Positions 9,819 to 35,411 of a stretch of 38,505 nt of DNA are shown piece by piece (within the stretch, counting starts at the first letter, position 1; every line of letters starts with the position of its first letter). This DNA comes from a phage, in the sequence record PX418924.1; one strand, written 5' to 3'. Both the position numbers and the translations under genes were made by a program. Under the pieces are notes generated by a model that worked only from the letters and a program-made list of their open reading frames with translations, searched no databases and was not told the DNA's origin.

Positions 9819-9875
9819 CCATTAATTTAAATCTTTTTATTAAATCTTTAATTCCCTCTTTAAGTATCCCTTATT

Positions 9876-13127: not shown

Positions 13128-13169
13128 AACACCTCCCATCAATTTTCAGATTTCACGTAGATGCACCAA

Positions 13170-13222
13170 ATAACATCCATAAAGGCTCCCCGCGTGGAGA
13201 ACCTTGAGTATGTCACTTACTG
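13170..13222 (-). promoter_or_regulatory. RNase III-type processing hairpin (R18.5-like)
   Basis: catccataaaggctccccgcgtggagaaccttgagtatgtcac. Confidence 0.6.
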
Positions 13223-13483: not shown

Positions 13484-13486
13484 AGG

Positions 13487-13690: not shown

Positions 13691-13701
13691 TCTTGTTCTC
13701 C

Positions 13702-15399: not shown

Positions 15400-15455
15400 G
15401 TGACCTCCTTTGTAAATTAGCATTAAGAGAGAAGAGGCCAGAATGTGACCTCTCT

Positions 15456-15475
15456 CCCTTTAGTGAGGGTTTATT
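15456..15475 (-). promoter_or_regulatory. T3-type phage RNAP promoter (phi17)
   Basis: ccctttagtgagggtttatt overlapping the gene 16 stop. Confidence 0.8.
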
Positions 15476-19433: not shown

Positions 19434-19451
19434 GGAGCCTCCTTATCACTG

Positions 19452-21695
19452 TTAGTCTTCTTTACGTCCATAGATGTACTTCGGAGTCTTCTTCCGTTTC
19501 TCTTGGACACGTTTACGAGCTTCTTCACGCGCCTGTGTTGCACGGCTTATTGGGGCACGCTTGTTGGCCTCTTTGAGAGCTTTCTCCCGTGCTGCCTCAG
19601 CTTGCATCTGAGCGGTACGCTGGTACTCACGCTGGAGCAACTCTTGGTCATACCGAATGCGAACCTGTCCGGTTGTGTCCATCAGGTAGATTGAATCACC
19701 TTGCTGGTACACCGACAGTTGCTTGTTGGTAATCCAAGGGTTAGCCTCTGTGATTCCCTTAATGGCTTCGTCCAGAATGTTCTTCCCTTGCTCCCACGAC
19801 TTAGGGTCATCCGAAACAGTCAGGATGTTCTTCGGTAGGACGCCGTAGGTATCACCCTCAACATCGCTACTGGAGAACGTGGTCGTCGAATCAGAGAGGA
19901 ACTTTGCGACCTGTTCAGTTGCCATGTCAGGGTTCCCTGTCCGGTACTTCACGGAATCATAAATCTTCCGGGCATACCCTTGGACACTCGAAGGCATGTA
20001 CTTGATTTGAGGATTCGTTGAATCGTTCATCATAGCAGCCCACGCTCGGTCATCCTCAAACTGCATCTCCTTGGTCTTCTGTGCGCGGGCCTTATCAGCG
20101 TCGATAAGAACCTGCGTGTCGATACCTTGGTTATCCAACATGTCCATCGTCAGGAACAACTCGGCCTTGTCAGGATACAGAGAGGCAATCAGGTCAGGGT
20201 CAGTGTTGCGGATGCGACGAAGGTTGTCCAGCGCTGGTGTGCTCTCAGGCATCTTGCCGTTAATCACCGCAGCCTGCCATTCGTTTCCAGCATCAGTAAT
20301 CATCTCACCAAACGCTGCACGGAAAGCACCCTCCTTGGAGTCTGCCCGCAGGTAGTCCAATTTCAGTTTGTCTTTCTGTTCTGGCGTTAAGTCCATCGCT
20401 TCGATTTCCGCTAACTTCTGGTTCGCGTAGTTTACCATATCGCTATGTGTAAACTCACCAGTGTTCTCGTTGGTCGGCATGTCCTTATAGTTGGTCGAGA
20501 CGTATTCACCGTTGAGGCGCTTCTGGAACTGCTTGTCGATGACCAGAGATTTATTCAGGGTCTTCTGTTGCTTGTCCATCAGCTTGGCTGTCTCAGCCTG
20601 TTCCTGCTTGAAGCGGGTGCGCATCTGTTCCTGTGCGGAAATAAGCCACTCACGCTCAGGAGTCATCTCTTCACCCGGCTGAATCTTATCGAGTTCTGCC
20701 TTGATACCTTGAAGAGTCTCCCAACCTTTACCAGTGTCCGCTTGGTTAAGCGCTGAGTTAATATCCAGTCGGAACTTCTCGGTTAACTTCGCGTTGTTCT
20801 GGAATTGAGTGTGCTGTGCCTTAATCATCATTGCCTGCCACTGCTCATCACCCATCAGTTCACGATAGGTAGTCGTAGCGCCATTTAGAGTTACCTTGCG
20901 GTTCTCAATGTTCTGCAAGAAGGCGGCACCACCCGGACGCTGTAGCACATCATTCAGGGACGAAGAGATAACCTGTTGAGCCTGATTGTCAGTCATCCCC
21001 GTCACCAAGGAGTTGTCGATGTAGTTCTGGAAGAACTCACCGGACTCAGGACGAGACAGTAGGTCAGGGTCGGACAGGACACCATTGAGTTCAACCTTCG
21101 AGTTCAGGATTGCACCCTTCTGCGCTTGGTCACTCAGGAAGGTATCATGTGCCCCATACAAAGCAATATTACGCTCGGTGATGTTCGCATTGAAACCCTT
21201 CTGGTACTCCTCGTCCATCTCGTTGATACCGAATTGCTCAGCGAACGACTTCGAGTGCTCCTGTAGGCGTGAGTGACGATACTGCTCCATCTCTTCACGA
21301 GTACGGAAGCGACCCTCTTTGATGGCCTGTTGAACCTCATCGTCAACGAGGAACGCAGCGTTACGCCCGGTCTTGAACTTCAAGGCTTGCATTGCGTATG
21401 GGTCATCCTGATACAGCAGTGTGCCATTCTGGATAGCCTGTCGGCGCTGCTCAGGGGTCAGCTTACGGATAATCTCGTTGGAGCGCTCATCGGCTCGTTG
21501 CTTATCACGTTCCTCTTTCGCCATGTACATATCGGCACCAGCCTTAGCGAATCGACCTAGGGAGTCCAGAAGACTCGCTCTTGGTTGTTCAGCCTGAATG
21601 GTTGCTGCCCGGTAGTCCATACCTTTGACGCCCCGGAGTCGTTCCATACCGGGAGTCGCCATGTTGCCTAAAACACTATTTAGTTTACTAGCCAT
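19452..21695 (-). CDS. 15: Internal virion protein gp15 (747 aa)
   Basis: 747 aa and synteny with T7 gp15. Confidence 0.9.
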   Translation of the reverse strand: MASKLNSVLGNMATPGMERLRGVKGMDYRAATIQAEQPRASLLDSLGRFAKAGADMYMAKEERDKQRADERSNEIIRKLTPEQRRQAIQNGTLLYQDDPYAMQALKFKTGRNAAFLVDDEVQQAIKEGRFRTREEMEQYRHSRLQEHSKSFAEQFGINEMDEEYQKGFNANITERNIALYGAHDTFLSDQAQKGAILNSKVELNGVLSDPDLLSRPESGEFFQNYIDNSLVTGMTDNQAQQVISSSLNDVLQRPGGAAFLQNIENRKVTLNGATTTYRELMGDEQWQAMMIKAQHTQFQNNAKLTEKFRLDINSALNQADTGKGWETLQGIKAELDKIQPGEEMTPEREWLISAQEQMRTRFKQEQAETAKLMDKQQKTLNKSLVIDKQFQKRLNGEYVSTNYKDMPTNENTGEFTHSDMVNYANQKLAEIEAMDLTPEQKDKLKLDYLRADSKEGAFRAAFGEMITDAGNEWQAAVINGKMPESTPALDNLRRIRNTDPDLIASLYPDKAELFLTMDMLDNQGIDTQVLIDADKARAQKTKEMQFEDDRAWAAMMNDSTNPQIKYMPSSVQGYARKIYDSVKYRTGNPDMATEQVAKFLSDSTTTFSSSDVEGDTYGVLPKNILTVSDDPKSWEQGKNILDEAIKGITEANPWITNKQLSVYQQGDSIYLMDTTGQVRIRYDQELLQREYQRTAQMQAEAAREKALKEANKRAPISRATQAREEARKRVQEKRKKTPKYIYGRKED

Positions 21696-21697
21696 TA

Positions 21698-22291
21698 TTA
21701 CCTCCCGGTCTTGGTTCCTTTGGCGGCACTGATAGGTGCTGCTTGGTTTCCACCTTTCTTGTCAAATCCACCAGCCGCATATTGACTTGCAGCTTCCTGA
21801 CCCATAATGGACAGAGGGTCTAGTACACGCATCAGACCAGACTTACCCTTGGCCTCGCTCTTGTACATTGCATCGACTTGACTTGCTGTTGACTGAGTGC
21901 GTCCCAACTGTTGCGCAAAGATACTCGCGTAGTCTCGACGGTAGTTCTCGGTGACGCTATTTGCCTCCCGAATGTAGTTGCCCTCTTCGATACGCTTGAT
22001 GCGCTTCATGGATTCGCCTTCTAGCATACTCTCGCCGATAGCTGCGCGGATTGTTCCCATAGCCTGTACCTTCTGCATGTTACGTGTAGTCAACTCAGAG
22101 GATGCAGCTTCAAGGGCGTCACGTTGTTCCAGCGAGGCGTTGGCATTCTGGATATTCATCTCTTTGACCATCTCCATTGCCTGTCTGCGTCCAGCTTCGG
22201 TCTGTGCCACTCGCGCCTTGTCGGCACTGTTCTGGCTACTCAGAGCTTGGGCACCCATCATGGCAATAGGAATCGCTGCCATCCAGCACAT
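21698..22291 (-). CDS. 14: Internal virion protein gp14 (197 aa)
   Basis: Size and synteny. Confidence 0.85.
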   Translation of the reverse strand: MCWMAAIPIAMMGAQALSSQNSADKARVAQTEAGRRQAMEMVKEMNIQNANASLEQRDALEAASSELTTRNMQKVQAMGTIRAAIGESMLEGESMKRIKRIEEGNYIREANSVTENYRRDYASIFAQQLGRTQSTASQVDAMYKSEAKGKSGLMRVLDPLSIMGQEAASQYAAGGFDKKGGNQAAPISAAKGTKTGR

Positions 22292-22293
22292 AG

Positions 22294-22704
22294 TTACCTC
22301 CTACTGATAGTGAATAATTGGAATTGACCATCAGCGGTAAACTCATTATGGAATACCGCGCCTATGGTCTTTAGGAAACGAATGTGTGACTTATTGCCTA
22401 CCCAAACGAAATTCCAAATGGACTCGTACTGGCTCAGCATCATATCACGATATTCAATGATAAGTCTACGAAACTCTAAGCGCTCCCTCAAGGTAAATAG
22501 TGGAACGTACTTAGAGGTAAGGAACCACACTCGGTCTCCCTGATTGCCACCGATTGCCAACACAGCGCCATCACTGAGCATTGCCACAGTGTTCTCATCA
22601 GGAATTACTTTAGGTTCGACACCCAATGCCTCAGCTTCCAGAATGTCCTCTATGGACGGCTGAAAGTTGTCAGCGTGGTTTTGTAAACACTTTGTAATGT
22701 ACAT
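22294..22704 (-). CDS. 13: Internal virion / assembly protein gp13 (136 aa)
   Basis: Size and synteny; phi13 directly upstream. Confidence 0.8.
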   Translation of the reverse strand: MYITKCLQNHADNFQPSIEDILEAEALGVEPKVIPDENTVAMLSDGAVLAIGGNQGDRVWFLTSKYVPLFTLRERLEFRRLIIEYRDMMLSQYESIWNFVWVGNKSHIRFLKTIGAVFHNEFTADGQFQLFTISRR

Positions 22705-22736
22705 AATGCTTTAACCCCTCGTATCTATTAGTGTCT

Positions 22737-22756
22737 CCCTTTAGTGAGGGTTAATT
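22737..22756 (-). promoter_or_regulatory. T3-type phage RNAP promoter (phi13)
   Basis: ccctttagtgagggttaatt. Confidence 0.85.
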
Positions 22757-22776
22757 CACCGCAGGGAGACTTTAAG

Positions 22777-25182
22777 TTAAATGCCAGAAGAACGACGAAG
22801 GTAGTTCCCCTCCCAGCCACACCCAATGATGTTCAGTGGAGTTGATGCATCTGACTCGATAGTTACTATGTTCGCCTGCGCATTACCAACCACCGGGAAG
22901 CGGTACTGCCCTGTTCCAATGTTCGACCTGCCAACACGCAGATTGTCAGAACCCAAACGAGCGCCAGCCATCGTGTAGATGAACTCACGGGACAGGTTGT
23001 TAACACGGATGGTGAACGCTCCAGAGTCCTCATAGTTTACCCATGCACGCCGAAGCTGTAAGCGACCAATATCCTCGGTAGCCGTCGAGCCGTCCTCAGC
23101 AGTCTTCTTAATGAGGAACTTCGAGAACGTATACGTGAACGGGATGTTGAACCCAATGTAGACTACTTGTCCCTCTTGGTTCCCATCGAGTCTCAATATT
23201 GGGTCGCTACTCCACCCGTTGACTGGCGGGTCTATCTCTACAATCTTCCCATCAGGAAAGACCACCGAAACCATACCCTTAGTGAAGTTCATCCCGTAAA
23301 TCGCTGAGAGGCTTATTGACGTCTGGTAGGTATCATCATTGTACGTCCCAGCAGGGATGGTGTATTCCCTCTTGGCGTCGATGTATAATCTGTAAGGCTC
23401 TCCCGGAATGTCTATGGAGTTCTTCGTGAAGTGTAAGCGTCCCATCCACACAGCATGTTCATTGCCCATCAATACAGTCATTGTTGAGTTTATCACATGT
23501 GCTGCAAACACCGTAACGTTGTCCCCAAAGTCCCAATGAGACCACGACTGCTGCCTGATTTCCTCCTCAATATATAGGAACTTATAGATATACACTCGGT
23601 TCGGCGCACCGCTCGTAAGGATAGCCACGAAGTTCTCAGCGGTTGTACCCGATATACTGAATACCCCATTCGGTATGTAGTTCGGAACGTGAGCCGTCAT
23701 ATCCTCTGCGTTCTTCACAGAGCTTACATCCTGTACCGCATAATATCGGTTAATGGATGTGAAGGAAGAGCGAGGTGACGCAAAGTATACATTACGCCCA
23801 ACACCGTGTGGTCGTGCCCTGTCTTGCACATCAAACTGAGTCGTAAGGTTCAACTCTACGGAGCGACTCGAAAGGATACCAGAAGCTGTCAGAACGAACT
23901 GCGCTTGGTCAGACCATAGGAGTAACTCTTCGGAGAACGGAACGGCATACTTCAAGGTTGACACCCGGTTGTGGCTAACCGCAACGTCGATTGGGTCATC
24001 GTCGGAGTAGTTTGACACGGATGCCGGGAAGAAGTTGAAGTATTTCGAGGTGCGAGACAAGATGATGTTCTCCCCACTAAGGAAGCCCAAACGGTTACGG
24101 AAGAAGAAAATATCGTTGATTGTCTGTCCGGTAAACGATGGGTATGGGTTGGTTGTATCATCGCCCACAGTACGAGCACCCCACTCAAGGTACTTGAAGT
24201 CAAAGTTCCCGTCAGAAGCACGTACCAGCGCCCAAGGCATCGTGTGGTAGTGCAGGTGAGTCCTCGTGTTCCAGCCGATTGTTTCTACCCATACCTTACG
24301 GTTGAGGTCGAACCTAACGTAATACTGGTCGGCAGTCTTTGAGGTGTCGCCTACAATCTTCACAATGTACCCATCTGGAGCGTTAATAGGCAACTTCTGG
24401 AACGACTGAGTGTAGTGGGTTACAGGGTTGATTAGCTGGTCTGCGTAACCATCCTTAGTCTGTAGTCCCCAAACGTTATCGTTATTTGGCGCAAGGATAT
24501 GGATGAATCCGGGGCCAACGTTGAAGCGCCACTTATTCGGGTCTTGCTCGTTGTTTGGATTCCCAAGGTTGTTCCTCAACTGAGCCGCCAGCTTCTCAGC
24601 GATGGCCTGACCGTCAACCTCATTGACGTGTGCTGGTTGTGAGCCGTCTGGTAGTTGAATAGCAGCACGCTCAGCCCCGTTGAACTCGATTGAGAGTCTA
24701 CGCCCATATTGCCCACCACGAACATTAATCAGCGCATCGCCTTGGTCTTTAAAGCCCGGAAGGTTGACCGATTGGTCGTTACTCTGCACAACCACCTTGC
24801 GGTTAGTCACAAAGGTATAGTCTGCCACAGTTACCATCCGAAGGTCTTCCCGTGGGTTAGCTGTGCGCACATAAGAGCGGTCTCCTCGTACTAGATACTC
24901 CTTACCATCGAGGTCGAACACCTTAATGTCTTCACCAGTGAACACGACGAAATACTGCTCGAACTCATCACGGTTGATAAGATGCACGTAAGGTTGCGCA
25001 CCCACATACCCAGCAGCGCCAAGGGTCTTAAGGTGGATCATCGGTGGGCGCTTCTGGAGACCCTCGGACTCAGAAGACCAACCGTTAATCTGCACGCTAC
25101 CTTGTTCAGCGAACCGGAGAATATCTGGCTGTTGGCTGATACCACCCTTGAGGTTTTTGATTGATTGGCTAATGAGAGCCAT
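22777..25182 (-). CDS. 12: Tail tubular protein B gp12 (801 aa)
   Basis: Size and synteny. Confidence 0.93.
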   Translation of the reverse strand: MALISQSIKNLKGGISQQPDILRFAEQGSVQINGWSSESEGLQKRPPMIHLKTLGAAGYVGAQPYVHLINRDEFEQYFVVFTGEDIKVFDLDGKEYLVRGDRSYVRTANPREDLRMVTVADYTFVTNRKVVVQSNDQSVNLPGFKDQGDALINVRGGQYGRRLSIEFNGAERAAIQLPDGSQPAHVNEVDGQAIAEKLAAQLRNNLGNPNNEQDPNKWRFNVGPGFIHILAPNNDNVWGLQTKDGYADQLINPVTHYTQSFQKLPINAPDGYIVKIVGDTSKTADQYYVRFDLNRKVWVETIGWNTRTHLHYHTMPWALVRASDGNFDFKYLEWGARTVGDDTTNPYPSFTGQTINDIFFFRNRLGFLSGENIILSRTSKYFNFFPASVSNYSDDDPIDVAVSHNRVSTLKYAVPFSEELLLWSDQAQFVLTASGILSSRSVELNLTTQFDVQDRARPHGVGRNVYFASPRSSFTSINRYYAVQDVSSVKNAEDMTAHVPNYIPNGVFSISGTTAENFVAILTSGAPNRVYIYKFLYIEEEIRQQSWSHWDFGDNVTVFAAHVINSTMTVLMGNEHAVWMGRLHFTKNSIDIPGEPYRLYIDAKREYTIPAGTYNDDTYQTSISLSAIYGMNFTKGMVSVVFPDGKIVEIDPPVNGWSSDPILRLDGNQEGQVVYIGFNIPFTYTFSKFLIKKTAEDGSTATEDIGRLQLRRAWVNYEDSGAFTIRVNNLSREFIYTMAGARLGSDNLRVGRSNIGTGQYRFPVVGNAQANIVTIESDASTPLNIIGCGWEGNYLRRSSGI

Positions 25183-25197
25183 AGAGCCTCCTTATGA

Positions 25198-25788
25198 TTA
25201 GCGGTTAAGTAGACCAGAGGTGAATGCGTCACCATCCAGCATGTTGTAGTTACCGTAGTCTAGCTCGTACTCGAAGCACGCACGCCACGCTTCCTGCTCC
25301 TCTTCCTGCAACACTCCGTCTACCTCCGGCGCACCGAAGAAGCGGTTATTGAACTGACGGGAAGCCTTGGTAACGATGTAGTTTCGGAAGCACTCTGGCA
25401 TCTCGTCGAACTCTCTCAGACGAATCAGGTTGACCTGAACACCAGAAGGGAATCTGTCGGTCTTCGCAGAGCGGTCATAGAGATAGCCACCACGGTTGAT
25501 ATATTGGGTCTGACCGCTGGTTGCCATTACGGACAGGTAGTCAGAGCTAAATGGAATCATGCCAGAGAACGCATCCGGCAGAAGAGTCACACCTTCCTCA
25601 ATATTGAATGTCCATCCTCGTGATTGAATCTGTCGGTTAATCTTATTGAGTACACGTCGAGCATTCGCAACGTCAGCATTAGCATCACCCTCAAGGGTTG
25701 ATACTGGTGGCTCACCGATGGAAGCCAGAATGTCGTTGACGGCTGATAGCTCTTCTGCGGTCTCAATGTTCATCTCATAAGAGCGCAT
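25198..25788 (-). CDS. 11: Tail tubular protein A gp11 (196 aa)
   Basis: 196 aa as in T7; ATG with GGAGGT upstream. Confidence 0.93.
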
Positions 25789-25798
25789 GATGTTACCT

Positions 25799-25817
25799 CC
25801 TGTTAGTGAGGGTTTAA
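25799..25817 (-). promoter_or_regulatory. Variant T3-type promoter (phi11-like)
   Basis: cctgttagtgagggtttaa between the terminator and gene 11. Confidence 0.6.
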
Positions 25818-25820
25818 AGC

Positions 25821-25860
25821 AAAAAACCCCTCAGATACCCTCAGAGGGCACCCAAGGGGT
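25821..25860 (-). terminator. T-phi-like intrinsic terminator after gene 10
   Basis: Transcript reads CCCCUUGGGUGCCCUCUGAGGGUAUCUGAGGGGUUUUUUG: GC-rich hairpin followed by U6. Confidence 0.75.
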
Positions 25861-25900
25861 TCATAAAGTAATGAAGGAAAGTAAATCCCCGGTAAAGACC

Positions 25901-27216
25901 TTAGCCTTCTACGGGAGGCTCTACTGCTTTCACAGTGACCTTGCAGACAGCCATCAGGCCATTCACAGTAGTCGCAGTGATGTCAGCGGAGCCAGCGCCC
26001 ACAGCAGTTACAGTACCAGAGGCATCGACCGTGGCAATCTTCGCATTGGAAGACGTAAAGGTCACTGTCTGTACCGCATCAGCCGGAGTTACCGTAGAAG
26101 TCAGGGCTTTAGAAGCCCCAACGTCTAAGCTCATAGTCTTCTGACTAAGAGTAACTCCAGTGGGGTCGGGAATTACTCCGACACCTTTGGGAGAACGATA
26201 GCGCCAGCAGCTTCTGGACGCAGACCACCGTGACCCATCGCGTACTTAGCGATAATCTGGTCAGCCTGATAGTTCGCACGACGAGCGCGCTCCAGAGCCA
26301 AGTCTTTCAGCTTGACCGTACCAACCGCAGAGCGGTGCTGGAACAGGCCCACAACGTTATCCAGAGCAACCTTAACGGTAGTGCTGGAAGTCGCCGGGAA
26401 AGCGTGCTTCTGGTCGGCCGGGGAATCCTCACGGGTATCACCAGCGCCACCAGCGGTCAGGTGCGGAACCTCAACCACTTCGAAGCCCATCACGTTACGG
26501 ATAGTACCACGCTCAGGGTCAATCAGTGCCTGATAGTTTGCAGCGTTCGGCATCAGAGCAGCCAGAATCGCGGAGTAGTTATCAGGAGTGGTGTAGAAAG
26601 TACGGTCAGCAGCCGGAACGTAGTTCTTGGTCAGAGCCGCACGAGCAACGGTCAACTGAGCGATAATCGCTTTACCCAGCTCAACCGGGTCAGTCAGGTC
26701 GCCAGAGGTCGGCTTAACCAGAGTCAGTACGGTAGGCTTACCGAGACCCTCGATGTTCTCATTGGAGGCGTCCGGCAGGTTAACCAGACCAGCCAGTTCA
26801 GCCAGTACAGCACCGTCCGCCGCCATCGCAAGAGATTCACCCAACTGTGCGGTGTACTCAGCGCGAACGTCGTAGTGGTTCATCGCGTCCTCAATGTCGT
26901 AAATCAGAACGTCCGCAGTCAGCAGGCCATCAATGTGGATTACCTTCTCGGTGTGTTTGATATCCTTACGTTTGTCATCGAGGTTCTCACCCGGTTTCAG
27001 GTAAGCAGCTTTGGTGCGACCAATCACAGGGAACTGTGCGGACTTACCAGAAGCGATAGAGCGCAGCATGTGACGAGGCATGGTCACGGAGGTGCGAGCG
27101 AAAGCCGTCAGGACTTCACCGCCGAACACTTTCAGGAACAGCGCCAATTTGTCCGCTGCGGACTGACCCTTACCCTGATTAGTACCAATTTGCTGTCCGC
27201 CTTGAATGTTAGCCAT
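25901..27216 (-). CDS. 10B: Minor capsid protein 10B made by programmed -1 frameshift from 10A (about 438 aa)
   Basis: Slippery heptamer CCCAAAG at 26185-26191, 12 nt before the 10A stop; the -1 frame stays open to 25901. Confidence 0.7.
26173..27216 (-). CDS. 10A: Major capsid protein 10A (347 aa)
   Basis: Strong RBS TAAGGAG; size and position; follows phi10. Confidence 0.95.
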   Translation of the reverse strand: MANIQGGQQIGTNQGKGQSAADKLALFLKVFGGEVLTAFARTSVTMPRHMLRSIASGKSAQFPVIGRTKAAYLKPGENLDDKRKDIKHTEKVIHIDGLLTADVLIYDIEDAMNHYDVRAEYTAQLGESLAMAADGAVLAELAGLVNLPDASNENIEGLGKPTVLTLVKPTSGDLTDPVELGKAIIAQLTVARAALTKNYVPAADRTFYTTPDNYSAILAALMPNAANYQALIDPERGTIRNVMGFEVVEVPHLTAGGAGDTREDSPADQKHAFPATSSTTVKVALDNVVGLFQHRSAVGTVKLKDLALERARRANYQADQIIAKYAMGHGGLRPEAAGAIVLPKVSE

Positions 27217-27354
27217 GTTGAATCTCCTTATGTTGATTTAAAGAAAAGTTTGGTTACTACTTGAATCGAGTTGGTTCTCAATGTTTCACCTACGGGAGTG
27301 ACCACAAAGTTCTGTGCTCAGGTGATTCAACCATTGTAGTCATCTATGGTCTCT

Positions 27355-27374
27355 CCCTTTAGTGAGGGTTAATT
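27355..27374 (-). promoter_or_regulatory. T3-type phage RNAP promoter (phi10)
   Basis: ccctttagtgagggttaatt. Confidence 0.85.
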
Positions 27375-28305
27375 AGAAACTGGAGTCGATAACCTTCTGT
27401 TCTACCATTTGACGGTAGGCAACATCACTACGGTAACGCGGGTCACTCATAGCTTTAATCATCTCAGCCTGATTCGTAAAGCCCTCTTTCTGACGAGCTA
27501 CAGGTTTAACCGGAGTAGCACGCTTGGTCACACTACGGTTGGCAGGCTTACCGAATTTCTTCGTGTAACTCTCACCAGCCAGATTGATAATCGCTTTGAT
27601 AGTCGCCAAGTCTCGGTTCATCATGGCAGCCTCAAGGGACTCAGCCGCAGCCGGGTTGGTTGCTTCAAGGTGCGTATGGATTGCGCTAAAGCGCTCCTTA
27701 CCGCCAGCAAAGGCAACTACCTGATTGACGTACTGGTCTACAAGGGCTTCCTGACCGGAGATGTAGGAGTCCACAAAGGCACGACTATAGCCAGCAGCTT
27801 CGAGTTCCGCGTAGGATTTCTCAGAGATACCATCGGCTTCGTACTCTTCGTAGATGCGAGTCACAGACTCTGCGCTCAGTCCACGCTCAACGGCCTGCTC
27901 GACCATCGCCTGAAAGCCTTCTTCGTGCTGACCTAATTGTTCAGTCACTTGGCTCAGCTCTTCTGGAGTGTCACCCAGCGGCTCAAACTCAGCGGCTTCA
28001 CCTTCGGTCTCCACCTCAGCGTTATCGCTACCAGTGTCGAACTCGGCTTCACTACCATCTTCACTGATACGAACCTGAATGCGGCCCTCATCATCCTCGC
28101 CCTCAGCGAATGGGTCTTCACCAGCCGCATAAGGGTCATCGTTATGAGAACTCGGTTCCTCGCTAAGTACGATTGCATCATCGCCATCACGGGCAGCAAC
28201 ATCGAGACTCAGCATATTCTGTTCGTGTTCAGTAGGTGTGCTTCCGGTCATTACCGCGTTGTTCACACCGAAGGACGCATAAACGTCTGCATTAGATTCA
28301 GCCAT
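27373..28305 (-). CDS. 9: Capsid scaffolding protein gp9 (310 aa)
   Basis: Acidic protein of the expected size between portal and capsid genes. Confidence 0.9.
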   Translation of the reverse strand: MAESNADVYASFGVNNAVMTGSTPTEHEQNMLSLDVAARDGDDAIVLSEEPSSHNDDPYAAGEDPFAEGEDDEGRIQVRISEDGSEAEFDTGSDNAEVETEGEAAEFEPLGDTPEELSQVTEQLGQHEEGFQAMVEQAVERGLSAESVTRIYEEYEADGISEKSYAELEAAGYSRAFVDSYISGQEALVDQYVNQVVAFAGGKERFSAIHTHLEATNPAAAESLEAAMMNRDLATIKAIINLAGESYTKKFGKPANRSVTKRATPVKPVARQKEGFTNQAEMIKAMSDPRYRSDVAYRQMVEQKVIDSSF

Positions 28306-28389
28306 TGTTAAATCTCCTAAGTTGTTAAAGATAAAGGGAAACCAAAGGACTCCAACCTTTAGTCATCGCTCATTTCAAAGATGAGGTCT

Positions 28390-28408
28390 CCCTTTAGTGA
28401 GGGTTATT
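28390..28408 (-). promoter_or_regulatory. T3-type phage RNAP promoter (phi9)
   Basis: ccctttagtgagggttatt. Confidence 0.85.
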
Positions 28409-30014
28409 AGGTGGCGTCTAGGCCAGCCTGTGCTGCTGCACCCTGCATAGCTTCTGGACTTGAGGTAGCCAAAGCACCAACACCAGCACCACCAGCAGCC
28501 GCAGCGTTCTCGATACCTGTTTGGGCCGCATCCTGCATCATCAGTGCTTGCTTCTGCTCGTCCGTCAGTAGGATACCAGAAGTATCAATACCAATGGCGT
28601 TAGCAATTCGCAGCTTAATGACAGCAAGGTTAATGTCCGGGTCTCCCTGCATAGGAGCCAGAGCAGCCCAAGCGGAGATACAGCGCTCCAGCTTATCGAG
28701 GTCTTGACCACGACCGATTGCTTCCAGACCTGTGCTGATAGTTGGCTCAACGGCTTCTTTCGGTAACTCAGGAATCTGCGAGGTTGCTTGGAGTTGCTTC
28801 AAGAGCACACGAACCAGAGGCAATTGCAGTTCTTGAGACAGAATCGAATAGACGCCACCAAGCGTATCTTCCAGTTCTGACGCAACGTATCGAATCTCTT
28901 CGGCGGTCACACGTTCACCTGTGCGCTGTACCGCAGAGTTCAACATAAAGGCATACGATAAGCGTGCTTCTATCTGGTCACTCACAGCTTTCGCTACGGT
29001 AAAGTCAGCTTGCTTCTCCAGTTGAAGGAAGTCAATGTCTTCTCGACGACCGGGAACGAAGTCACCAGTCTGAGCTTTGGTTAATCTACGGGGCTGCGTA
29101 ATGCCAGCCGGGTTAACCAGACCGATGACCTTCGCACTAATCATGCTCATCTTAACGATAGCCTCTTGGAGATTCTCAAGCGACCTTAAGTCACCTAAGT
29201 ATTCTTCACAGTAGGAGCGACCGTAAGACTCGCCATCAATGCGAACCATGCGAACCGGAATGTAGGGCATAGCGTCAGTCGGATACGTGGCATCGGAGCC
29301 ATCAATCTCAACGTCCTCTACTTCCTCGTACTTGAGGTAATCGCCGGACTCTTCATCGAGATACACATGGGTGTACACATCGACCATTTCGTCCATCTTC
29401 TTCTCACCGCCAGCTTTCTCTACCGCAGACCGAACGTCTTCCGGGAGAGCACCAAAGGCTATCTGGTCACGAGTGACAATCTGTAACACATTGCCGTATG
29501 CGTCTCTTTGGACAACATAAGAAGACAATCTGTACAGCTTCATCGGATTGTAGCTACCTTCGGGTTCCGGTAAGTAAAGCAGTGCATTACCTGCCACGAT
29601 CAACTGCTTGAGGCACTCAAAGAGCGTCACACGGTAGCTGTTGGATTCGATATAGTTCATGATAATACGCTCAACCATAGACAGACCTTCGTCCACCTTA
29701 GCGAGTCCATCAGGGTCTCCAACAAGCTGCTTCGCCTCATATTCACTAATGGTCAGCTTCATCCACGACTGCATCGGGAATAGTGCCAGCATTAATTTAG
29801 AGGCCAGATTGTTAAGACCCCGCGCACCTACAGCCTGCCACGGAGTCGTGTAGTCGGTAGATTCGTTATCGGACTCCTTCGGGAACAAGGACGGAATGGT
29901 GTATTGCGCACAGTTTTCCGCACGAGTCTCATAGGCTCTACGGTCGTTCGTTAGGCGGTCATAGGTAGCTTTAGCACCGTCTTCACCCAATCCTGTACGT
30001 TTTGAATCAGCCAT
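28407..30014 (-). CDS. 8: Portal (head-tail connector) protein gp8 (535 aa)
   Basis: Size and synteny with T7 gp8. Confidence 0.93.
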   Translation of the reverse strand: MADSKRTGLGEDGAKATYDRLTNDRRAYETRAENCAQYTIPSLFPKESDNESTDYTTPWQAVGARGLNNLASKLMLALFPMQSWMKLTISEYEAKQLVGDPDGLAKVDEGLSMVERIIMNYIESNSYRVTLFECLKQLIVAGNALLYLPEPEGSYNPMKLYRLSSYVVQRDAYGNVLQIVTRDQIAFGALPEDVRSAVEKAGGEKKMDEMVDVYTHVYLDEESGDYLKYEEVEDVEIDGSDATYPTDAMPYIPVRMVRIDGESYGRSYCEEYLGDLRSLENLQEAIVKMSMISAKVIGLVNPAGITQPRRLTKAQTGDFVPGRREDIDFLQLEKQADFTVAKAVSDQIEARLSYAFMLNSAVQRTGERVTAEEIRYVASELEDTLGGVYSILSQELQLPLVRVLLKQLQATSQIPELPKEAVEPTISTGLEAIGRGQDLDKLERCISAWAALAPMQGDPDINLAVIKLRIANAIGIDTSGILLTDEQKQALMMQDAAQTGIENAAAAGGAGVGALATSSPEAMQGAAAQAGLDAT

Positions 30015-30024
30015 TCAGTCCTCC

Positions 30025-30345
30025 TTAGATGTTAATGCCACCGCCGGAGCTACGGGCTACACTCAGCGACTTCTTACCGCCAGCGCGTGCTTTCTTACGT
30101 GCGCTTTCGGTTTGAGCCTCATCCTCACCCTCAGCCTTATCCTGTTCAGGTACGTCTACAATCTGTGCTGGAGGTGGCGCAGTCACTACTGGTGCTGGAG
30201 CCTCTTGTTGGATAATCTCCTGCTTACCTGCACCCAGCGCACCGCCAACGACTTTACCGACTTCCTTACCAGCCTTCTCGACTGGTCTGCTAACTTCCTT
30301 CACAACTTTCTTAACGGCTTTCTTGATTTTCTTGAAGAATCCCAT
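30025..30345 (-). CDS. 7.3: gp7.3-like virion protein (106 aa)
   Basis: Lys/Ala-rich protein directly upstream of the portal gene. Confidence 0.75.
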   Translation of the reverse strand: MGFFKKIKKAVKKVVKEVSRPVEKAGKEVGKVVGGALGAGKQEIIQQEAPAPVVTAPPPAQIVDVPEQDKAEGEDEAQTESARKKARAGGKKSLSVARSSGGGINI

Positions 30346-30371
30346 AATGTGTCCCCTATGTTATGTCACAG

Positions 30372-30623
30372 TTACCCAAACGCCTTGGAGCGAATGGAGG
30401 ATTTACTCTTGTTCTTGGCTGCGTTGTCATCCAGCTTTACCTTAAGACTGCTCTTACCGCTGCTCTGTGTGGTTGGAACCTCAGAGGAAGACACGCTGGT
30501 GTCCTCATCGTCATCGCCTCCCCATACCACAGATTTCGGTGGCTCAGTCAAAGGTGCTGGTTCGGCAGCGCGAATCTGGTTAGTGTCCATCTTAGGGACT
30601 TTCACCTTCGGTTTCCAGCACAT
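30372..30623 (-). CDS. 6.7: gp6.7-like virion protein (83 aa)
   Basis: Size and synteny. Confidence 0.75.
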   Translation of the reverse strand: MCWKPKVKVPKMDTNQIRAAEPAPLTEPPKSVVWGGDDDEDTSVSSSEVPTTQSSGKSSLKVKLDDNAAKNKSKSSIRSKAFG

Positions 30624-30627
30624 ATAA

Positions 30628-30873
30628 TTACTCCTGTCTCAGTTGCTCTTTACGCACCTCAATCTCATCAAGTGTTCGAGAGGCAAGGTACAGACCATGC
30701 ATCACGCCCGCAATGAAAGACTCAGAGTATCCAGCGGCGCGTAGCGCACGGTACTCCCCGGACTCCATCACATAGGTCTGATTGAAGCGCACCTGTAGAT
30801 ACTCTTTAGCTGCACGAGGCATACTAGGAATATCATCGGGATGAGTTAAAACATGATTAATTGGTTGTAACAT
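30628..30873 (-). CDS. 6.5: gp6.5 (81 aa), function unknown
   Basis: Size and synteny; follows phi6.5. Confidence 0.75.
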   Translation of the reverse strand: MLQPINHVLTHPDDIPSMPRAAKEYLQVRFNQTYVMESGEYRALRAAGYSESFIAGVMHGLYLASRTLDEIEVRKEQLRQE

Positions 30874-30897
30874 AATTTCACCTCTTAAGGTTAAGTC

Positions 30898-30968
30898 TTA
30901 AAGTAATAATCATAAAGGCTCCCTCTTCCCTTTAGTGAGGGTTAATACAGAGAGCCTTGAGTTTATCA
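30898..30968 (-). promoter_or_regulatory. RNase III-type hairpin (R6.5-like) with phi6.5 inside its loop region
   Basis: aatcataaaggctccc ... gagccttgagtttatcac flanking the promoter. Confidence 0.6.
30928..30946 (-). promoter_or_regulatory. T3-type phage RNAP promoter (phi6.5)
   Basis: ccctttagtgagggttaat. Confidence 0.85.
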
Positions 30969-31079
30969 CTTAATCTCGGAGTCTCGCTTCACGTCTCGGA
31001 CTATGAGAGTGAACATCCAGAGACCTCGCGCCAGCATACCTACCAGCACAGCGATGGTTATGTACTTTGTGGCGTCCAT
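30966..31079 (-). CDS. 6.3: gp6.3-like small protein (37 aa)
   Basis: [37 protein letters not shown]; 37 aa as in T7 6.3; start overlaps the gene 6 end. Confidence 0.5.
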
Positions 31080-31972
31080 AGGTAAATCTCCTTGTCAATG
31101 TAATTGTATTCCTCGAAGCGAAGAATGCGAGCCATCTGGCCTTGCTTGATGATTTCCTGCTCGGTCATCCCAGCTTTGGCACCAATGGATTTAATGCAGT
31201 CCCACAGCGTCTCAGTCGCATCAGGAGCACGCTTCACCCACTTGGTTACTGTCTGCCCCTTGTTCTTACCAGACTTCAACACGGACTCTACAGGCTCCAC
31301 AATGAACGGGTCATTCAGGAAACCTTCTGCCGTATCGCCCCAGCCGGGAATCCCGGAGTAGCCATCAGTCATATCACCCTTGATGGTCTGGAAGAGATGC
31401 CACCAATCAGCGGTCTCTTTGGTCTGTGTCAAGATGTTGCCAGTGGTACACCACAGGAAGTCAACGTCCGGGATAGTCTTGAAGTCCTTGTCACAGGAGA
31501 CCAACACAGCCTTCTTGAAGCCGAAGACCTCGTGACCAGACCCAATGATGCCCATAACGTCATCACCTTCCAGCATGTCCTCTTTGATGTGAATGAACTC
31601 ATCGCGCTCCCACAGCTTCGCTAAGAAGTCACGGTAGCCCACAGGTTTACGGGTCGCCTTACGGTTCTCCTTATAGGTCTCATCAACCAGTACCTTACGC
31701 CAGTTAACATCATCGGTAAACGCCAGAACTACCGTAGCATCACGCCACGCCTTCTTGCGGGTTCGGTATGATTCGATTGCAGAATCGAGAATGCTCCGTG
31801 CCTTGGCGTGGTCACACTCAAGAGTCCAAATGTCGTCTCCCCAATCCGTCTCAACTTCGGCAGCAGCCATTGACTGATATACCAACCAGTCACCATCCAT
31901 GACCAGCACTCCCTTCTCCACAGGCTTACCTTCACGCATCTCCGCGAAGTCTTTCAATGTGATTAGGCTCAT
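31058..31972 (-). CDS. 6: 5'-3' exonuclease gp6 (304 aa)
   Basis: [12 protein letters not shown]..., [51 protein letters not shown] match T7 gp6 as recalled. Confidence 0.95.
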
Positions 31973-32151
31973 TCGTCATCCTCCCCGTAAACCATTTCGA
32001 CTGCATCAGAGTATCCGTCCCAATTATCCACACCACACGCCTTAAGCGCATTCAGGAACTCTAGGTCTTTCTCCAGCTTATCAATGTACGCGCTAACATC
32101 GTTCCACGCATCACGGGTCATCGTTACGGTGTCACTCTTAGGCATAATCAT
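31969..32151 (-). CDS. 5.9: gp5.9-like protein (RecBCD inhibitor in T7), about 60 aa
   Basis: Position between 5.7 and 6; start taken at the ATG overlapping the 5.7 stop (ATGA); acidic C-terminus. Confidence 0.5.
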   Translation of the reverse strand: MIMPKSDTVTMTRDAWNDVSAYIDKLEKDLEFLNALKACGVDNWDGYSDAVEMVYGEDDE

Positions 32152-32357
32152 ACGCAACCTCCCATTCGTTTCAGGAAGCGCACACCAGAGGCTGTGACCT
32201 CCCATGCTCCACCATTGCGACCACCTACAGTCAAACAGCTAATGTGTCCACGAGAAGCGGCCTCAGCTACGAGAGCCGCATTGTTTCGCACATAGTTCGA
32301 CTGAAAGGACTTAGGGCAGCCTTTGATAGCCGCCAGCACTTTCAGGTATTCACTCAT
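32148..32357 (-). CDS. 5.7: gp5.7 (69 aa)
   Basis: MSEYLKVLAAIKGCPKSFQSNYVRNNAALVAEAASRGHISCLT... near-identical to T7 gp5.7 as recalled. Confidence 0.85.
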   Translation of the reverse strand: MSEYLKVLAAIKGCPKSFQSNYVRNNAALVAEAASRGHISCLTVGGRNGGAWEVTASGVRFLKRMGGCV

Positions 32358-32656
32358 TAGAACACCTCCCGTACAGTAGCGGGAGACAGCTTGAAGCTAT
32401 CCTTATCGGCATACTCTTCGTGCATATCTTTGATTGCCTCACGGAAAGACGTTCGCACAAGGAAGGCCATCAGCCCCTCCATGCCATACGTCAGGAACTG
32501 GACAATCATCTCTTTTTGTTTACCAGTGGGGACAATAGCGCCTGAGCCAACCTGCTTACACAGGTGCAGAATGTCTTTCTCCAAGATTGCCTGAACGTCA
32601 GATGCCATCTTAGCGGTAACGTCGAATGACACTTTAAATTTCTTGGTCATAGCCAT
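32357..32656 (-). CDS. 5.5: gp5.5 (99 aa; H-NS-binding protein in T7)
   Basis: MAMTKKFKVSFDVTAKMASDVQAILEKD... near-identical to T7 gp5.5 as recalled. Confidence 0.88.
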   Translation of the reverse strand: MAMTKKFKVSFDVTAKMASDVQAILEKDILHLCKQVGSGAIVPTGKQKEMIVQFLTYGMEGLMAFLVRTSFREAIKDMHEEYADKDSFKLSPATVREVF

Positions 32657-32675
32657 AATAATTTCTCCTATAGAA

Positions 32676-34790: not shown

Positions 34791-34811
34791 AATGCCCTCC
34801 TTTCATTTCAG

Positions 34812-34862
34812 GATAAATGATAATCATAAAGGCCACCCTTGGGCGACCTTGAGTTTATCACT
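34812..34862 (-). promoter_or_regulatory. RNase III-type processing hairpin (R4.7-like)
   Basis: gataatcataaaggccacccttgggcgaccttgagtttatcac. Confidence 0.65.
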
Positions 34863-35142
34863 TCTCGATAATCTCTTGCATACCAGCGCCGAACTCTACC
34901 AGACGCTCACGGTTATCACCGACCACCTTGTCAGCAGCCATAGTCAGGGCACCCATCAGGCGGCCTACCTGCTTGTCAGTCAAGGTCATGCGTTGAGTGT
35001 GTGCTTTCGGAGACTTGTGGTCTTTCCAGCGGTAGACCATCGTTACCTTCTCACCGCGCACATTGATGTGTACTCGACGAGCGAACTGGTCAGCGGTGTC
35101 CGGCAGACGGATGGTGTTAGCGTGAGTGATTGACTTGCTCAT
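34858..35142 (-). CDS. 4.5: gp4.5-like protein (94 aa)
   Basis: ATG at 35142 with TAAGGAG upstream; synteny. Confidence 0.7.
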   Translation of the reverse strand: MSKSITHANTIRLPDTADQFARRVHINVRGEKVTMVYRWKDHKSPKAHTQRMTLTDKQVGRLMGALTMAADKVVGDNRERLVEFGAGMQEIIEK

Positions 35143-35152
35143 GGTGTGCTCC

Positions 35153-35365
35153 TTACTCAAAGAATTTGCTCATGGACTGTGCTTTGGCTGCAATCGCTGC
35201 CGACTTGTGGATGCCACTAACAGCCGCATCGGATTTCTCGCGGGACTGTTTCGCCAACTCAATGGCTCGCTGTGAATCAGCTTTGGCCTTCTTGTCCAGC
35301 TTCTTGGCTTCGATGAAATACAGTTTAACTACCAGCTTACCTAAAGCGTTAATGAATTTAAACAT
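35153..35365 (-). CDS. 4.3: gp4.3-like protein (70 aa)
   Basis: 70 aa as in T7 4.3; follows phi4.3. Confidence 0.7.
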   Translation of the reverse strand: MFKFINALGKLVVKLYFIEAKKLDKKAKADSQRAIELAKQSREKSDAAVSGIHKSAAIAAKAQSMSKFFE

Positions 35366-35392
35366 GATGTGTCTCCTATGGTTTGAGGTTGT

Positions 35393-35411
35393 TCCCGTTA
35401 GTGAGGGTTAA
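35393..35411 (-). promoter_or_regulatory. T3-type phage RNAP promoter (phi4.3)
   Basis: cccgttagtgagggttaat. Confidence 0.8.

What the first reader, a model, noticed from the sequence alone, without database searches (positions are those of the whole stretch)
25901..26191. Programmed -1 frameshift in the capsid gene appends an extension with Ig-like character
The heptamer CCCAAAG (minus strand, 26185-26191) fits the X_XXY_YYZ slippery pattern 12 nt before the 10A stop, and the -1 frame is open for about 95 more codons (GVGVIPDPTGVTLSQKTMSLDVGASKALTSTVTPADAVQTVTFTSSNAKIATVDASGTVTAVGAGSADITATTVNGLMAVCKVTVKAVEPPVEG). The alternating Thr/Val/Ala beta-strand-like pattern resembles bacterial Ig-like (Big_2-type) domains, which other phages add to structural proteins by frameshifting. 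The T7 10B extension I recall is shorter.
Basis: partly seen in the sequence, partly recalled or inferred. Interest (0 to 1): 0.5.

Follow-up and report, generated by a model that had tools for sequence, protein, structure and literature searches.

The report
T3-type capsid frameshift adding Ig domain

Summary
The window is a T3-like podovirus (Teetrevirus) read on its minus strand. Gene 10A (27216..26173, 347 aa, Pfam Gp10A-like E=3e-111) ends CTC CCA AAG GTG TCG GAG TAA. The heptamer C_CCA_AAG (26191..26185) is in the right phase. It is the only slippery motif in the 73-nt stretch where a -1 shift could join the two frames. The -1 frame then runs 94 codons (26185..25901) and is a Pfam Big_2 domain (E=7.6e-16, 58 bits).

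Several results show this frame is translated as a fusion. It is under purifying selection (dN/dS 0.16-0.23 against the T3 allele). It has no promoter or Shine-Dalgarno of its own. Its domain starts upstream of the only internal ATG.

The same slip site plus 42 nt downstream is identical in T3. There the frameshift to gp10B is annotated (X17255, NC_003298) and described as Ig-like in the literature (PMC5009743, PMC3276506). Klebsiella phage Patroon (98% identical) annotates this very product.

Beyond that, the window carries a second Big_2 allele (64% identical to T3's), and most GenBank relatives mis-annotate it as a separate 77-aa ORF. A conserved 11-bp hairpin 5 nt downstream is a plausible but unproven stimulator.

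Verdict: real, supported, already known, low interest.

The parts
27352..27374 (-). T3-type late promoter phi10, driving the gene 10 mRNA
   Evidence: AATTAACCCTCACTAAAGGGAGA is read. The core matched at 27370..27353 as one of 12 T3-promoter copies on the minus strand, with 0 expected by chance.
26173..27216 (-). Gene 10A, the major capsid protein (347 aa, 36.9 kDa), 0 frame, stop TAA at 26175..26173
   Evidence: ORF. Pfam Gp10A-like E=3.4e-111. T7 gp10A capsid structures match at E=1.8e-171. Mass.
26173..26245 (-). Overlap of the 0 and -1 frames, the only place where a -1 shift can fuse them (73 nt)
   Evidence: The upstream -1-frame stop TAA lies at 26248..26246. CCCAAAG is the only phased slippery motif inside this stretch.
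26185..26191 (-). Slippery heptamer C_CCA_AAG (Pro343-Lys344). After the shift the tRNAs re-pair on CCC_AAA and the G at 26185 is read again.
   Evidence: Identical in T3 and 9 other T3-like loci. C_CCA_AAG is listed as highly shift-prone in E. coli in PMC5009743.
25901..26185 (-). gp10B-specific extension in the -1 frame: 94 codons plus TAA (25903..25901). The fusion gp10B is 438 aa, 45.7 kDa.
   Evidence: Translation, mass. dN/dS 0.16-0.23 against the T3 allele, with 57 of 101 differences at third codon positions.
25958..26161 (-). Big_2 (bacterial Ig-like, group 2) domain, extension residues 9-76
   Evidence: Pfam PF02368 E=7.6e-16, profile positions 3-72 of 79. PDB Big_2 chains match over extension residues 5-88.
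26148..26179 (-). Candidate stimulatory hairpin: GGAGUAAUUCC / GGAGUUACUCU, 11 bp, 10-nt loop, 5-nt spacer after the heptamer. The 10A stop codon lies in its 5' arm.
   Evidence: It forms once the first 5-6 nt after the heptamer are held single-stranded. The 45-nt segment folds at -15.8 kcal/mol, z=-3.3. 95% of cells are paired in 10 distinct sequences from two genera, with one compensatory pair, but the shuffle control is not significant. This role is inferred, not shown.
26165..26182 (-). Competing small hairpin GUCGG/CCGAC, only 2 nt after the heptamer. Probably not the stimulator.
   Evidence: It is part of the MFE fold. Its middle pair is broken in 6 of 10 sequences, and it sits too close to the slip site.
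25901..26134 (-). The 77-aa ATG ORF that most GenBank relatives annotate as a separate gene ('hypothetical', 'minor capsid', 'major tail protein', 'structural protein with Ig domain'). It is the tail of the 10B extension.
   Evidence: ORF. Annotations. No Shine-Dalgarno upstream (ttagtcagaagact ATG).
25824..25862 (-). Tphi, the major rho-independent terminator for the phage RNA polymerase, downstream of the extension
   Evidence: 18-bp stem followed by a T run. It aligns with the annotated T3 and Patroon terminators.
25796..25818 (-). Promoter phi11, followed by the gene 11 start (ATG 25788)
   Evidence: Promoter core matched at 25814..25797. T3 annotation, ORF.

Best explanation
This is gene 10 of a T3-like phage, decoded in two ways.

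Most ribosomes read CTC CCA AAG GTG TCG GAG and stop, giving the major capsid protein gp10A (347 aa). A minority slip back one base while tRNA-Pro and tRNA-Lys occupy C_CCA_AAG. The tRNAs re-pair on CCC_AAA, and the ribosome continues in the -1 frame for 94 codons. The product, gp10B (438 aa, 45.7 kDa), is the capsid protein through Lys344 followed by a short linker (GVGVIPDP) and one Big_2 Ig-like domain.

gp10B co-assembles with gp10A. The virion therefore carries a sub-stoichiometric set of Ig-like domains at the exposed C-terminus, on the outside of the shell.

Basis of each step:
- Shown from sequence and comparison: the phase of the site, the open frame, the Big_2 identity, coding-type selection in the -1 frame, the absence of independent expression signals, and identity of the site with T3.
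- Taken from literature on T3: gp10B is made by -1 frameshifting, is found in particles and is dispensable.
- Inferred: the shift is helped by the weak AAG pairing of E. coli-type tRNA-Lys and probably by an 11-bp hairpin 5 nt downstream.
- Inferred: the displayed domain acts as a weak, accessory adhesin for surface carbohydrates.
For: Site and frame:
- The heptamer is phased and 9 nt from the stop, and the -1 frame is open for 94 codons.
- It is the only slippery motif in the 73-nt overlap of the two frames.

The extension is an Ig-like domain:
- Pfam Big_2 at E=7.6e-16, PHROG 215, and solved Big_2 chains at E=3.8e-11.

The -1 frame is coding:
- Against the T3 allele (64% aa identity), dN/dS is 0.16-0.23 and third-position changes dominate, 57 against 22 and 22.
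- In L008, two substitutions just after the site are synonymous in the -1 frame but create an early stop in the 0 frame.

It is a fusion, not a separate gene:
- The Big_2 match starts at extension residue 9, but the only ATG is residue 18 and lacks a Shine-Dalgarno.
- The peptide from the slip site onward, GVGVIPDPTGVTLSQKT, is conserved in Teetrevirus. Pifdecavirus has GVSVPDPTGVTLSQKT.
- PPpW-4 has no Met at that position.
- No phage promoter lies between the 10A stop and the extension, and Tphi lies after it.

Precedent:
- T3 has the identical site plus the identical 42 nt that follow.
- T3 records annotate 10B as a -1 frameshift, as does Patroon, a 98% identical phage.
- PMC3276506 states that T3 particles contain gp10A and gp10B and that gp10B is dispensable.
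- PMC5009743 states that the T3 extension is Ig-like, is made by -1 frameshifting, and that C_CCA_AAG is highly shift-prone in E. coli.

Hairpin.
Against: - No protein data exist for this particular allele. The one proteomic paper on a close relative analysed SH1, which lacks the extension, and not SH2 (PMC4925675).
- Frameshift efficiency is unknown.
- The hairpin's conservation does not beat the shuffle control (42 of 500 shuffles reach the observed covariation). The hairpin was also derived from one of the aligned sequences. One metagenomic variant (L009) lacks its 5' arm altogether.
- The single-sequence AlphaFold model was all-beta but of low confidence (pLDDT 46.7). The Ig fold therefore rests on sequence homology rather than on a model.
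- The adhesin role is an analogy with other phage Ig-like domains. It was not tested for T3-like phages in anything I could read.
Confidence: 0.93

Rival explanations
1. The Ig-like ORF is an independent small gene. It is translated from its own ATG at 26134 into a free 77-aa protein, a separate 'minor capsid' or decoration protein, as most GenBank records of relatives annotate it.
For: An ATG-initiated 77-aa ORF exists at 26134..25901. Many records annotate it that way. The SH2 paper lists it with the 'RBS' TCAGAAGACtATG. The public protein collection holds it only as 54-77-aa ORF calls.
Against: - The 20 nt upstream of the ATG have no Shine-Dalgarno, whereas genes 10A and 11 have AAGGAG and AGGAGG.
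- The ATG lies inside the Big_2 domain. The Pfam and PDB matches start at extension residues 5-9 and the Met is residue 18, so a free protein would lack the first strand.
- The 17 codons between the slip site and the ATG are conserved at the protein level across two genera, with changes synonymous in the -1 frame.
- The Met is absent in PPpW-4.
- In T3 the same arrangement gives a fusion protein.
Confidence: 0.04
2. The long form is made by RNA polymerase slippage, that is, insertion or deletion of an A at the AAA run, rather than by ribosomal frameshifting.
For: The fusion protein sequence would be nearly indistinguishable, and nothing computed here excludes this directly.
Against: The homopolymer is only three A's (CCCAAAG). 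By established knowledge, productive transcriptional slippage needs runs of about 7-9 identical bases. The motif also has the exact tandem-slippage phase X_XXY_YYZ, and that phase is conserved. Phase would not matter for polymerase slippage.
Confidence: 0.01
3. The open -1 frame is a decaying remnant. The slip site no longer works, or works only at noise level, and the domain has no role.
For: gp10B is dispensable in T7 and T3 (PMC3276506). Some close relatives have no Ig domain at all: SH1, and VAC1, which has a T7-type extension instead.
Against: There is strong purifying selection in the -1 frame (dN/dS 0.16-0.23). The frame is intact in every relative examined. At least 40 GenBank phages carry this allele at 90% aa identity or more. 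The slip site is invariant among them.
Confidence: 0.02

Closest known systems
Bacteriophage T3 gene 10A/10B (-1 programmed ribosomal frameshift; GenBank X17255, NC_003298)
   Same: Same gene, same genus, the same heptamer C_CCA_AAG at the same codons, and an identical 42 nt downstream. The 10A tail is the same (VSE*). The architecture is the same: capsid protein, GVGVIPDP linker, then one Big_2 domain, followed by Tphi.
   Different: The Big_2 domain is a different allele. It is 64% identical in protein and about 60% in DNA after the first 18 codons, and 94 rather than 89 residues long, with a C-terminal VEPPVEG tail. The 3' UTR before Tphi is about 110 nt shorter.
Klebsiella phage Patroon MK608335 and about 40 other Teetrevirus isolates (GlastosBack, phiYe-F10, KNP3, SH2, E-3 and others)
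   Same: 97-98.4% nucleotide identity over gene 10 and the extension, and the same Big_2 allele at 93-99% aa identity. Patroon annotates the joined 'Frame shift product'.
   Different: The window has Met where all the relatives read here have Thr, at extension residue 78. Most of these records annotate only the 54-77-aa ORF, under assorted names.
Bacteriophage T7 gene 10A/10B frameshift
   Same: Homologous capsid gene. A -1 shift within the last few codons yields a minor capsid protein with a C-terminal extension that is displayed on the shell.
   Different: T7-type relatives use G_GUU_UUC, one codon upstream. They add a 43-57-aa extension (..LTPQQKAARTRAANKA..) that gives no Pfam hit and is not Ig-like (PMC5009743).
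Ig-like domains added by frameshifting to other phage structural proteins (Lactobacillus phage A2 head protein, Listeria phages A118/A500/PSA), and Big_2 domains fused in-frame to tail and decoration proteins
   Same: The same domain family is appended to the C-terminus of a major structural protein, giving two products from one gene (PMC5009743). tblastn finds this Big_2 type on major tail, head and decoration proteins of 297 phage records.
   Different: The carrier proteins, hosts and slip sites are unrelated, and some of these shifts are +1. The similarity lies in the added module and the strategy. The genes are not homologous.

Membership tests
T3/T7-type gene 10 -1 programmed frameshift (gp10A/gp10B) | The carrier gene is a Gp10A-like (HK97-fold) major capsid gene of a T7-like phage | tested here: met
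   Pfam Gp10A-like E=3.4e-111. T7 capsid structures match at E=1.8e-171. T3 promoters and gene order are present.
T3/T7-type gene 10 -1 programmed frameshift (gp10A/gp10B) | A slippery sequence, phased for tandem -1 slippage, within the last codons of 10A | tested here: met
   C_CCA_AAG at codons 343-344 of 347. It is the only such motif in the 73-nt overlap and is identical to the T3 site.
T3/T7-type gene 10 -1 programmed frameshift (gp10A/gp10B) | A -1 ORF that overlaps the 3' end of 10A, extends past its stop and ends before Tphi, with no expression signals of its own | tested here: met
   94 codons, 26185..25901. Tphi is at 25862..25824. No promoter and no Shine-Dalgarno.
T3/T7-type gene 10 -1 programmed frameshift (gp10A/gp10B) | The site and the extension are conserved in relatives, with coding-type selection in the -1 frame | tested here: met
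   10 T3-like loci share the site. dN/dS is 0.16-0.23. The Big_2 extension is also present in Pifdecavirus, Phutvirus and Troedvirus.
T3/T7-type gene 10 -1 programmed frameshift (gp10A/gp10B) | The longer protein is actually made and incorporated into virions | not testable with these tools
   Reported for T3 in PMC3276506 and annotated in X17255. I found no proteomics for this allele.
T3/T7-type gene 10 -1 programmed frameshift (gp10A/gp10B) | A cis-acting stimulator (downstream structure or upstream SD-like element) | tested here: inconclusive
   An 11-bp hairpin with a 5-nt spacer is 95% paired across 10 sequences and has one compensatory pair, but it is not significant against shuffles. 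Reading the 34 nt upstream of the heptamer shows no SD-like element.
Pfam Big_2 (PF02368), bacterial Ig-like domain group 2 | Score above the family's gathering threshold over most of the profile | tested here: met
   58.3 bits against a cutoff of 22.8, profile positions 3-72 of 79.
Pfam Big_2 (PF02368), bacterial Ig-like domain group 2 | Beta-sandwich (Ig-like) three-dimensional fold | tested here: inconclusive
   The single-sequence AlphaFold2 model has 7 strands and no helix, but pLDDT is only 46.7. Indirect support comes from sequence matches to solved Big_2 domains (9cuy, 7z47, 6n1a, intimin).
T7-type 10B extension | Short (about 45-57 aa) extension with the conserved ..LTP(Q/A)QKAA.TRA.NKA.. 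motif, reached from G_GUU_UUC | tested here: not met
   The window has C_CCA_AAG and a 94-aa Big_2 domain. The T7-type motif is absent.

The most novel reading that the evidence does not exclude
Two readings that are not in the literature I could read remain open.

(a) The T3-type shift may be boosted by the 11-bp hairpin GGAGUAAUUCC/GGAGUUACUCU, 5 nt downstream, whose 5' arm contains the 10A stop codon. The hairpin is kept in Teetrevirus and, in altered sequence, in Pseudomonas Pifdecavirus.

(b) The slip site may serve Studiervirinae as a fixed docking point behind which display modules are swapped by recombination. The modules seen are two Big_2 alleles, a T7-type helix, a double Big_2, and Big_2 plus a GDSL esterase. 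On this reading the window's allele would be a distinct binding specificity rather than a mere sequence variant.
Probability: 0.35. Interest if true: 0.3.

Novelty: already known. Interest (0 to 1): 0.1.

Why it matters
The biology is not new. T3 gp10B and its Ig-like extension are an established example of programmed frameshifting.

The practical value is for annotation. In most deposited genomes of this phage group the extension is called a separate small gene and named inconsistently ('hypothetical protein', 'major tail protein', 'minor capsid protein', 'structural protein with Ig domain'). It should instead be joined to gene 10 at C_CCA_AAG.

For phage engineering and therapy it is useful to know that these Klebsiella, Enterobacter and Yersinia phages naturally display a Big_2 domain on a subset of capsid subunits. 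This affects surface or mucus adherence and immunogenicity, and it offers a ready-made low-copy display site.

Tried and rejected
- **Structure prediction.** A single-sequence AlphaFold2 run on the extension gave pLDDT 46.7. That is too poor for a fold search, so none was run.
- **Alignment for a better model.** A homologue search returned only four near-identical 54-77-aa ORF calls.
- **The MFE hairpin right after the slip site** (GUCGG/CCGAC). I rejected it as the stimulator because it starts only 2 nt after the heptamer and its middle pair is broken in 6 of 10 natural variants.
- **The large multi-branch structure 24 nt downstream** (z=-3.6). It is not shared with T3 and lies too far away. 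Its GC-rich inner hairpin (26127..26095) recurs in T3 with some compensatory changes. However, it overlaps conserved Gly-Ala...Ala-Leu codons and sits about 60 nt from the site, so I treat it as unexplained rather than functional.
- **An upstream SD-like stimulator of the dnaX type.** None is visible in the 34 nt before the heptamer.
- **Heptamer frequency as evidence.** CCCAAAG is not over-represented in the window; only its position matters.
- **Original T7/T3 and A2 frameshifting papers** (PMC209055, PMC328964, PMC355979). They are not held, so statements about T3 rest on the review, on a later T3 paper and on GenBank annotation.

Full report
**What is there**

The window is a nearly complete T3-like podovirus genome lying on the minus strand. 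Twelve copies of the T3 RNA polymerase promoter core (AACCCTCACTAA[A/C][A/G]GGAG) occur on that strand, where none is expected by chance. Gene order and the nearest GenBank relatives (Teetrevirus, 97-98.4% nucleotide identity) agree.

The ORF 27216..26173 encodes a 347-aa protein that matches Pfam Gp10A-like at E=3.4e-111. It also matches solved T7 capsid protein structures at E=1.8e-171. It is preceded by promoter phi10 (27374..27352) and a strong Shine-Dalgarno, AAGGAG.

**Checking the observation**

The gene ends ...GTT CTC CCA AAG GTG TCG GAG TAA. CCCAAAG sits at 26191..26185 in the X_XXY_YYZ phase, and nine nucleotides separate it from the TAA at 26175..26173. The 0 frame beyond its stop is closed repeatedly.

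The heptamer as a bare word is not enriched, with 7 copies against 4.6 expected. Its position is what matters:
- Among eight phased heptamers in long ORFs of the coding strand, it is the only one near a stop that leads into a long frame running past that stop. One other lies inside a spurious embedded ORF.
- The -1 frame is closed by a TAA at 26248..26246, so the two frames overlap for only 73 nt. CCCAAAG is the only slippery heptamer or tetramer in phase in that stretch.

The fusion would be 438 aa and 45.7 kDa, against 36.9 kDa for 10A.

**What the extension is**

It matches Pfam Big_2 (PF02368) at E=7.6e-16 and 58.3 bits, against a cutoff of 22.8, over profile positions 3-72 of 79. It also matches PHROG 215, 'structural protein with Ig domain', at E=5e-26. 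In the PDB it matches Big_2-containing chains, including a phage short tail fibre, a surface protein, a carbohydrate-binding protein and intimin, down to E=3.8e-11 over residues 5-88.

A single-sequence AlphaFold2 model was all-beta with seven strands but of low confidence (pLDDT 46.7). I do not rely on it. A homologue search gave too few sequences for a better alignment.

**Evidence that the frame is translated as a fusion**

1. Selection. The window allele and the T3 allele are 64% identical in protein. In the -1 frame, 57 of 101 nucleotide differences fall at third codon positions, and dN/dS is 0.23 overall and 0.16 in the diverged part.
2. Immediately after the slip site, variant L008 carries GTC GGA changed to GTA GGG. 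The changes are silent in the -1 frame but create a premature stop in the 0 frame.
3. The Big_2 match begins at extension residue 9. The only ATG, at 26134, is residue 18. Its upstream 20 nt (ttactcttagtcagaagact) lack a Shine-Dalgarno, unlike genes 10A and 11.
4. The peptide between the slip site and that ATG is conserved: GVGVIPDPTGVTLSQKT in Teetrevirus and GVSVPDPTGVTLSQKT in Pseudomonas Pifdecavirus. The Met is missing in Phutvirus PPpW-4.
5. No phage promoter lies between the 10A stop and the extension. The major terminator Tphi (25862..25824) follows it, so the extension is part of the gene 10 mRNA.

**Comparison with what is known**

The slip site and the 42 nt after it are identical in phage T3. 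Beyond that point the two Big_2 alleles diverge.

- T3's records annotate gp10B as a -1 frameshift product: X17255 'frameshift at 19084' and the RefSeq NC_003298 joined CDS.
- A T3/T7 paper states that the -1 frameshift produces gp10B in wild-type T3, that gp10B is 86 residues longer than gp10A, that particles contain both forms, and that gp10B is dispensable (PMC3276506).
- The Atkins et al. review states that the T3 coat extension made by -1 frameshifting is an Ig-like domain whereas T7's is not. It also lists C_CCA_AAG among highly shift-prone heptamers in E. coli (PMC5009743).
- Klebsiella phage Patroon, 98.1% identical here, annotates the same joined 'Frame shift product'.

The finding is therefore correct and already known.

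**Additional results**

First, the window carries a second Big_2 allele that is widespread. More than 40 GenBank phages of Klebsiella, Enterobacter, Yersinia, Citrobacter, Serratia, Pantoea and other hosts carry it at 90% aa identity or more. In most records it is annotated as a free 54-77-aa ORF under assorted names, including 'major tail protein'.

Second, the extension behind the gene 10 slip site is modular across Studiervirinae.

| Group | Slip site | Extension |
|---|---|---|
| Teetrevirus, window type | C_CCA_AAG | one Big_2, 94 aa |
| Teetrevirus, T3 type | C_CCA_AAG | one Big_2, 89 aa |
| Teetrevirus VAC1 | G_CCA_AAG | T7-type, about 50 aa |
| Teetrevirus NL_ZS_3 (hybrid) | G_CCA_AAG | window-type Big_2 |
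| Pifdecavirus | N_GAA_AAG or C_GCA_AAG | one or two Big_2, or Big_2 plus other domains |
| Phutvirus PPpW-4 | C_ACA_AAG | Big_2 |
| Troedvirus phi15 | G_GTT_TTC (T7-type) | Big_2 |

Sources for the table are.

Third, on the mechanism. The MFE hairpin right after the site (GUCGG/CCGAC) starts only 2 nt downstream, and 6 of 10 natural variants break it.

If the first 5-6 nt after the heptamer are kept single-stranded, as they would be in a ribosome sitting on the site, an alternative 11-bp hairpin forms. This is GGAGUAAUUCC/GGAGUUACUCU at 26179..26148, with a canonical 5-nt spacer. The 45-nt segment holding it folds at -15.8 kcal/mol, z=-3.3.

Across 10 distinct sequences from two genera, 95% of its cells are paired. 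One pair changes on both sides (A-U to C-G) and five change on one side with pairing kept. Slid registers give 36-50% paired. The shuffle control is not significant, however (42 of 500), and the structure was derived from one of the aligned sequences. A metagenomic variant (L009) lacks the 5' arm and instead has a UGA directly after the heptamer. I therefore rate the hairpin as a reasonable candidate, not a demonstrated stimulator.

**Function**

By analogy with T7 display technology and with the engineered K1F gene 10b fusions (PMC13370021), the C-terminus of gp10B is on the capsid exterior. Frameshifting limits the fusion to a subset of subunits.

Big_2 domains of this type decorate tail, head and decoration proteins of many phages. 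They are generally thought to give weak carbohydrate or mucus adhesion (discussed in 10.1101/810705, and PMC5009743). For this phage that role is an inference only.

**Rivals**

- Independent initiation at ATG 26134 is contradicted by points 2-4 above.
- Transcriptional slippage is unlikely on a run of three A's, and it would not need the conserved phase.
- A decaying remnant is contradicted by the selection data and by intact frames in every relative examined.

**Verdict**

It is an already known system, T3 gp10A/gp10B. Interest is low, apart from the annotation fix and the untested stimulator.

Noticed in passing
L094 / L098 (Pseudomonas phage vB_PpuP-Kanksi PP496424.1, record 23300..24732): The -1 frame after gene 10 (ATC GAA AAG GCG TAA) encodes Big_2 followed by a GDSL/SGNH hydrolase domain. 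Pfam Lipase_GDSL_2 scores E=9.6e-10, 39.7 bits against a cutoff of 32.9, and the motifs GDSL and GTND are present. If it is expressed like T3 gp10B, this would be a capsid-displayed esterase made by frameshifting. GenBank calls it a separate 457-aa 'structural protein with Ig domain', and its ATG truncates the Big_2 domain.
   Followed up: partly
L011-L064 (37 of 80 IMG/VR T7-like capsid loci), -1 frame after GGTTTTC: A conserved 96-aa extension (..SVNTFSAR..YEVQTVAI.GDSLKV..TLYFKGIAVGETLVTVSF..KLVVTN) follows the T7-type slip site. It looks beta-rich but has no Pfam hit, so it may be another Ig-like display domain.
   Followed up: partly
L085 (VAC1), L089 (NL_ZS_3), L004 (T3) compared with window 26191..25901: Within one genus the module behind the slip site is exchanged: window-type Big_2, T3-type Big_2 (64% identical), or a T7-type ~50-aa helical extension. 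NL_ZS_3 is a hybrid with the VAC1-like G_CCA_AAG ACTTCGG junction joined to the window-type Big_2. G_CCA_AAG is not a perfect X_XXY_YYZ heptamer.
   Followed up: partly
L009 (IMG/VR fragment), L008, L090 (Sekstaphage-1), L091 (Emp27): These are natural variants around the site. L009 has a deletion that places UGA directly after CCCAAAG and removes the 5' arm of the candidate hairpin. L008, L090 and L091 have a C-to-A change at +5 that makes an early UAG in frame 0, shortening 10A by two residues, while staying silent in the -1 frame.
   Followed up: partly
window 26127..26095 (-): A GC-rich hairpin lies inside the Big_2 coding region, about 60 nt after the slip site (GUUGGGGCUUC UAA AGCCCUGAC). 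It recurs in the diverged T3 allele with some changes on both sides of pairs. It overlaps the conserved Gly-Ala-Ser-x-Ala-Leu codons and is probably too far away to act on frameshifting.
   Followed up: partly
window 25952..25950 (-), extension residue 78: The window has Met (ATG) in ..TVNGLMAVCK.., where every window-type relative read here has Thr (ACG). It is a private substitution in the last strands of the Big_2 domain.
   Followed up: no
GenBank relatives of window 26134..25901: The same 77-aa ORF is named 'hypothetical protein', 'minor capsid protein', 'major tail protein', 'cell adhesion domain-containing protein' or 'structural protein with Ig domain' in different records. One record (NL_ZS_3) instead calls an ORF on the opposite strand. 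Of the records inspected here, only T3, T7M, ChM-G5, Patroon and phiIBB-PF7A appear to carry two overlapping capsid CDSs or an annotated join.
   Followed up: partly
window, whole length, minus strand: Twelve T3-type promoter cores lie on the minus strand (1829..35409), so the window is essentially a whole Teetrevirus genome in reverse orientation.
   Followed up: no
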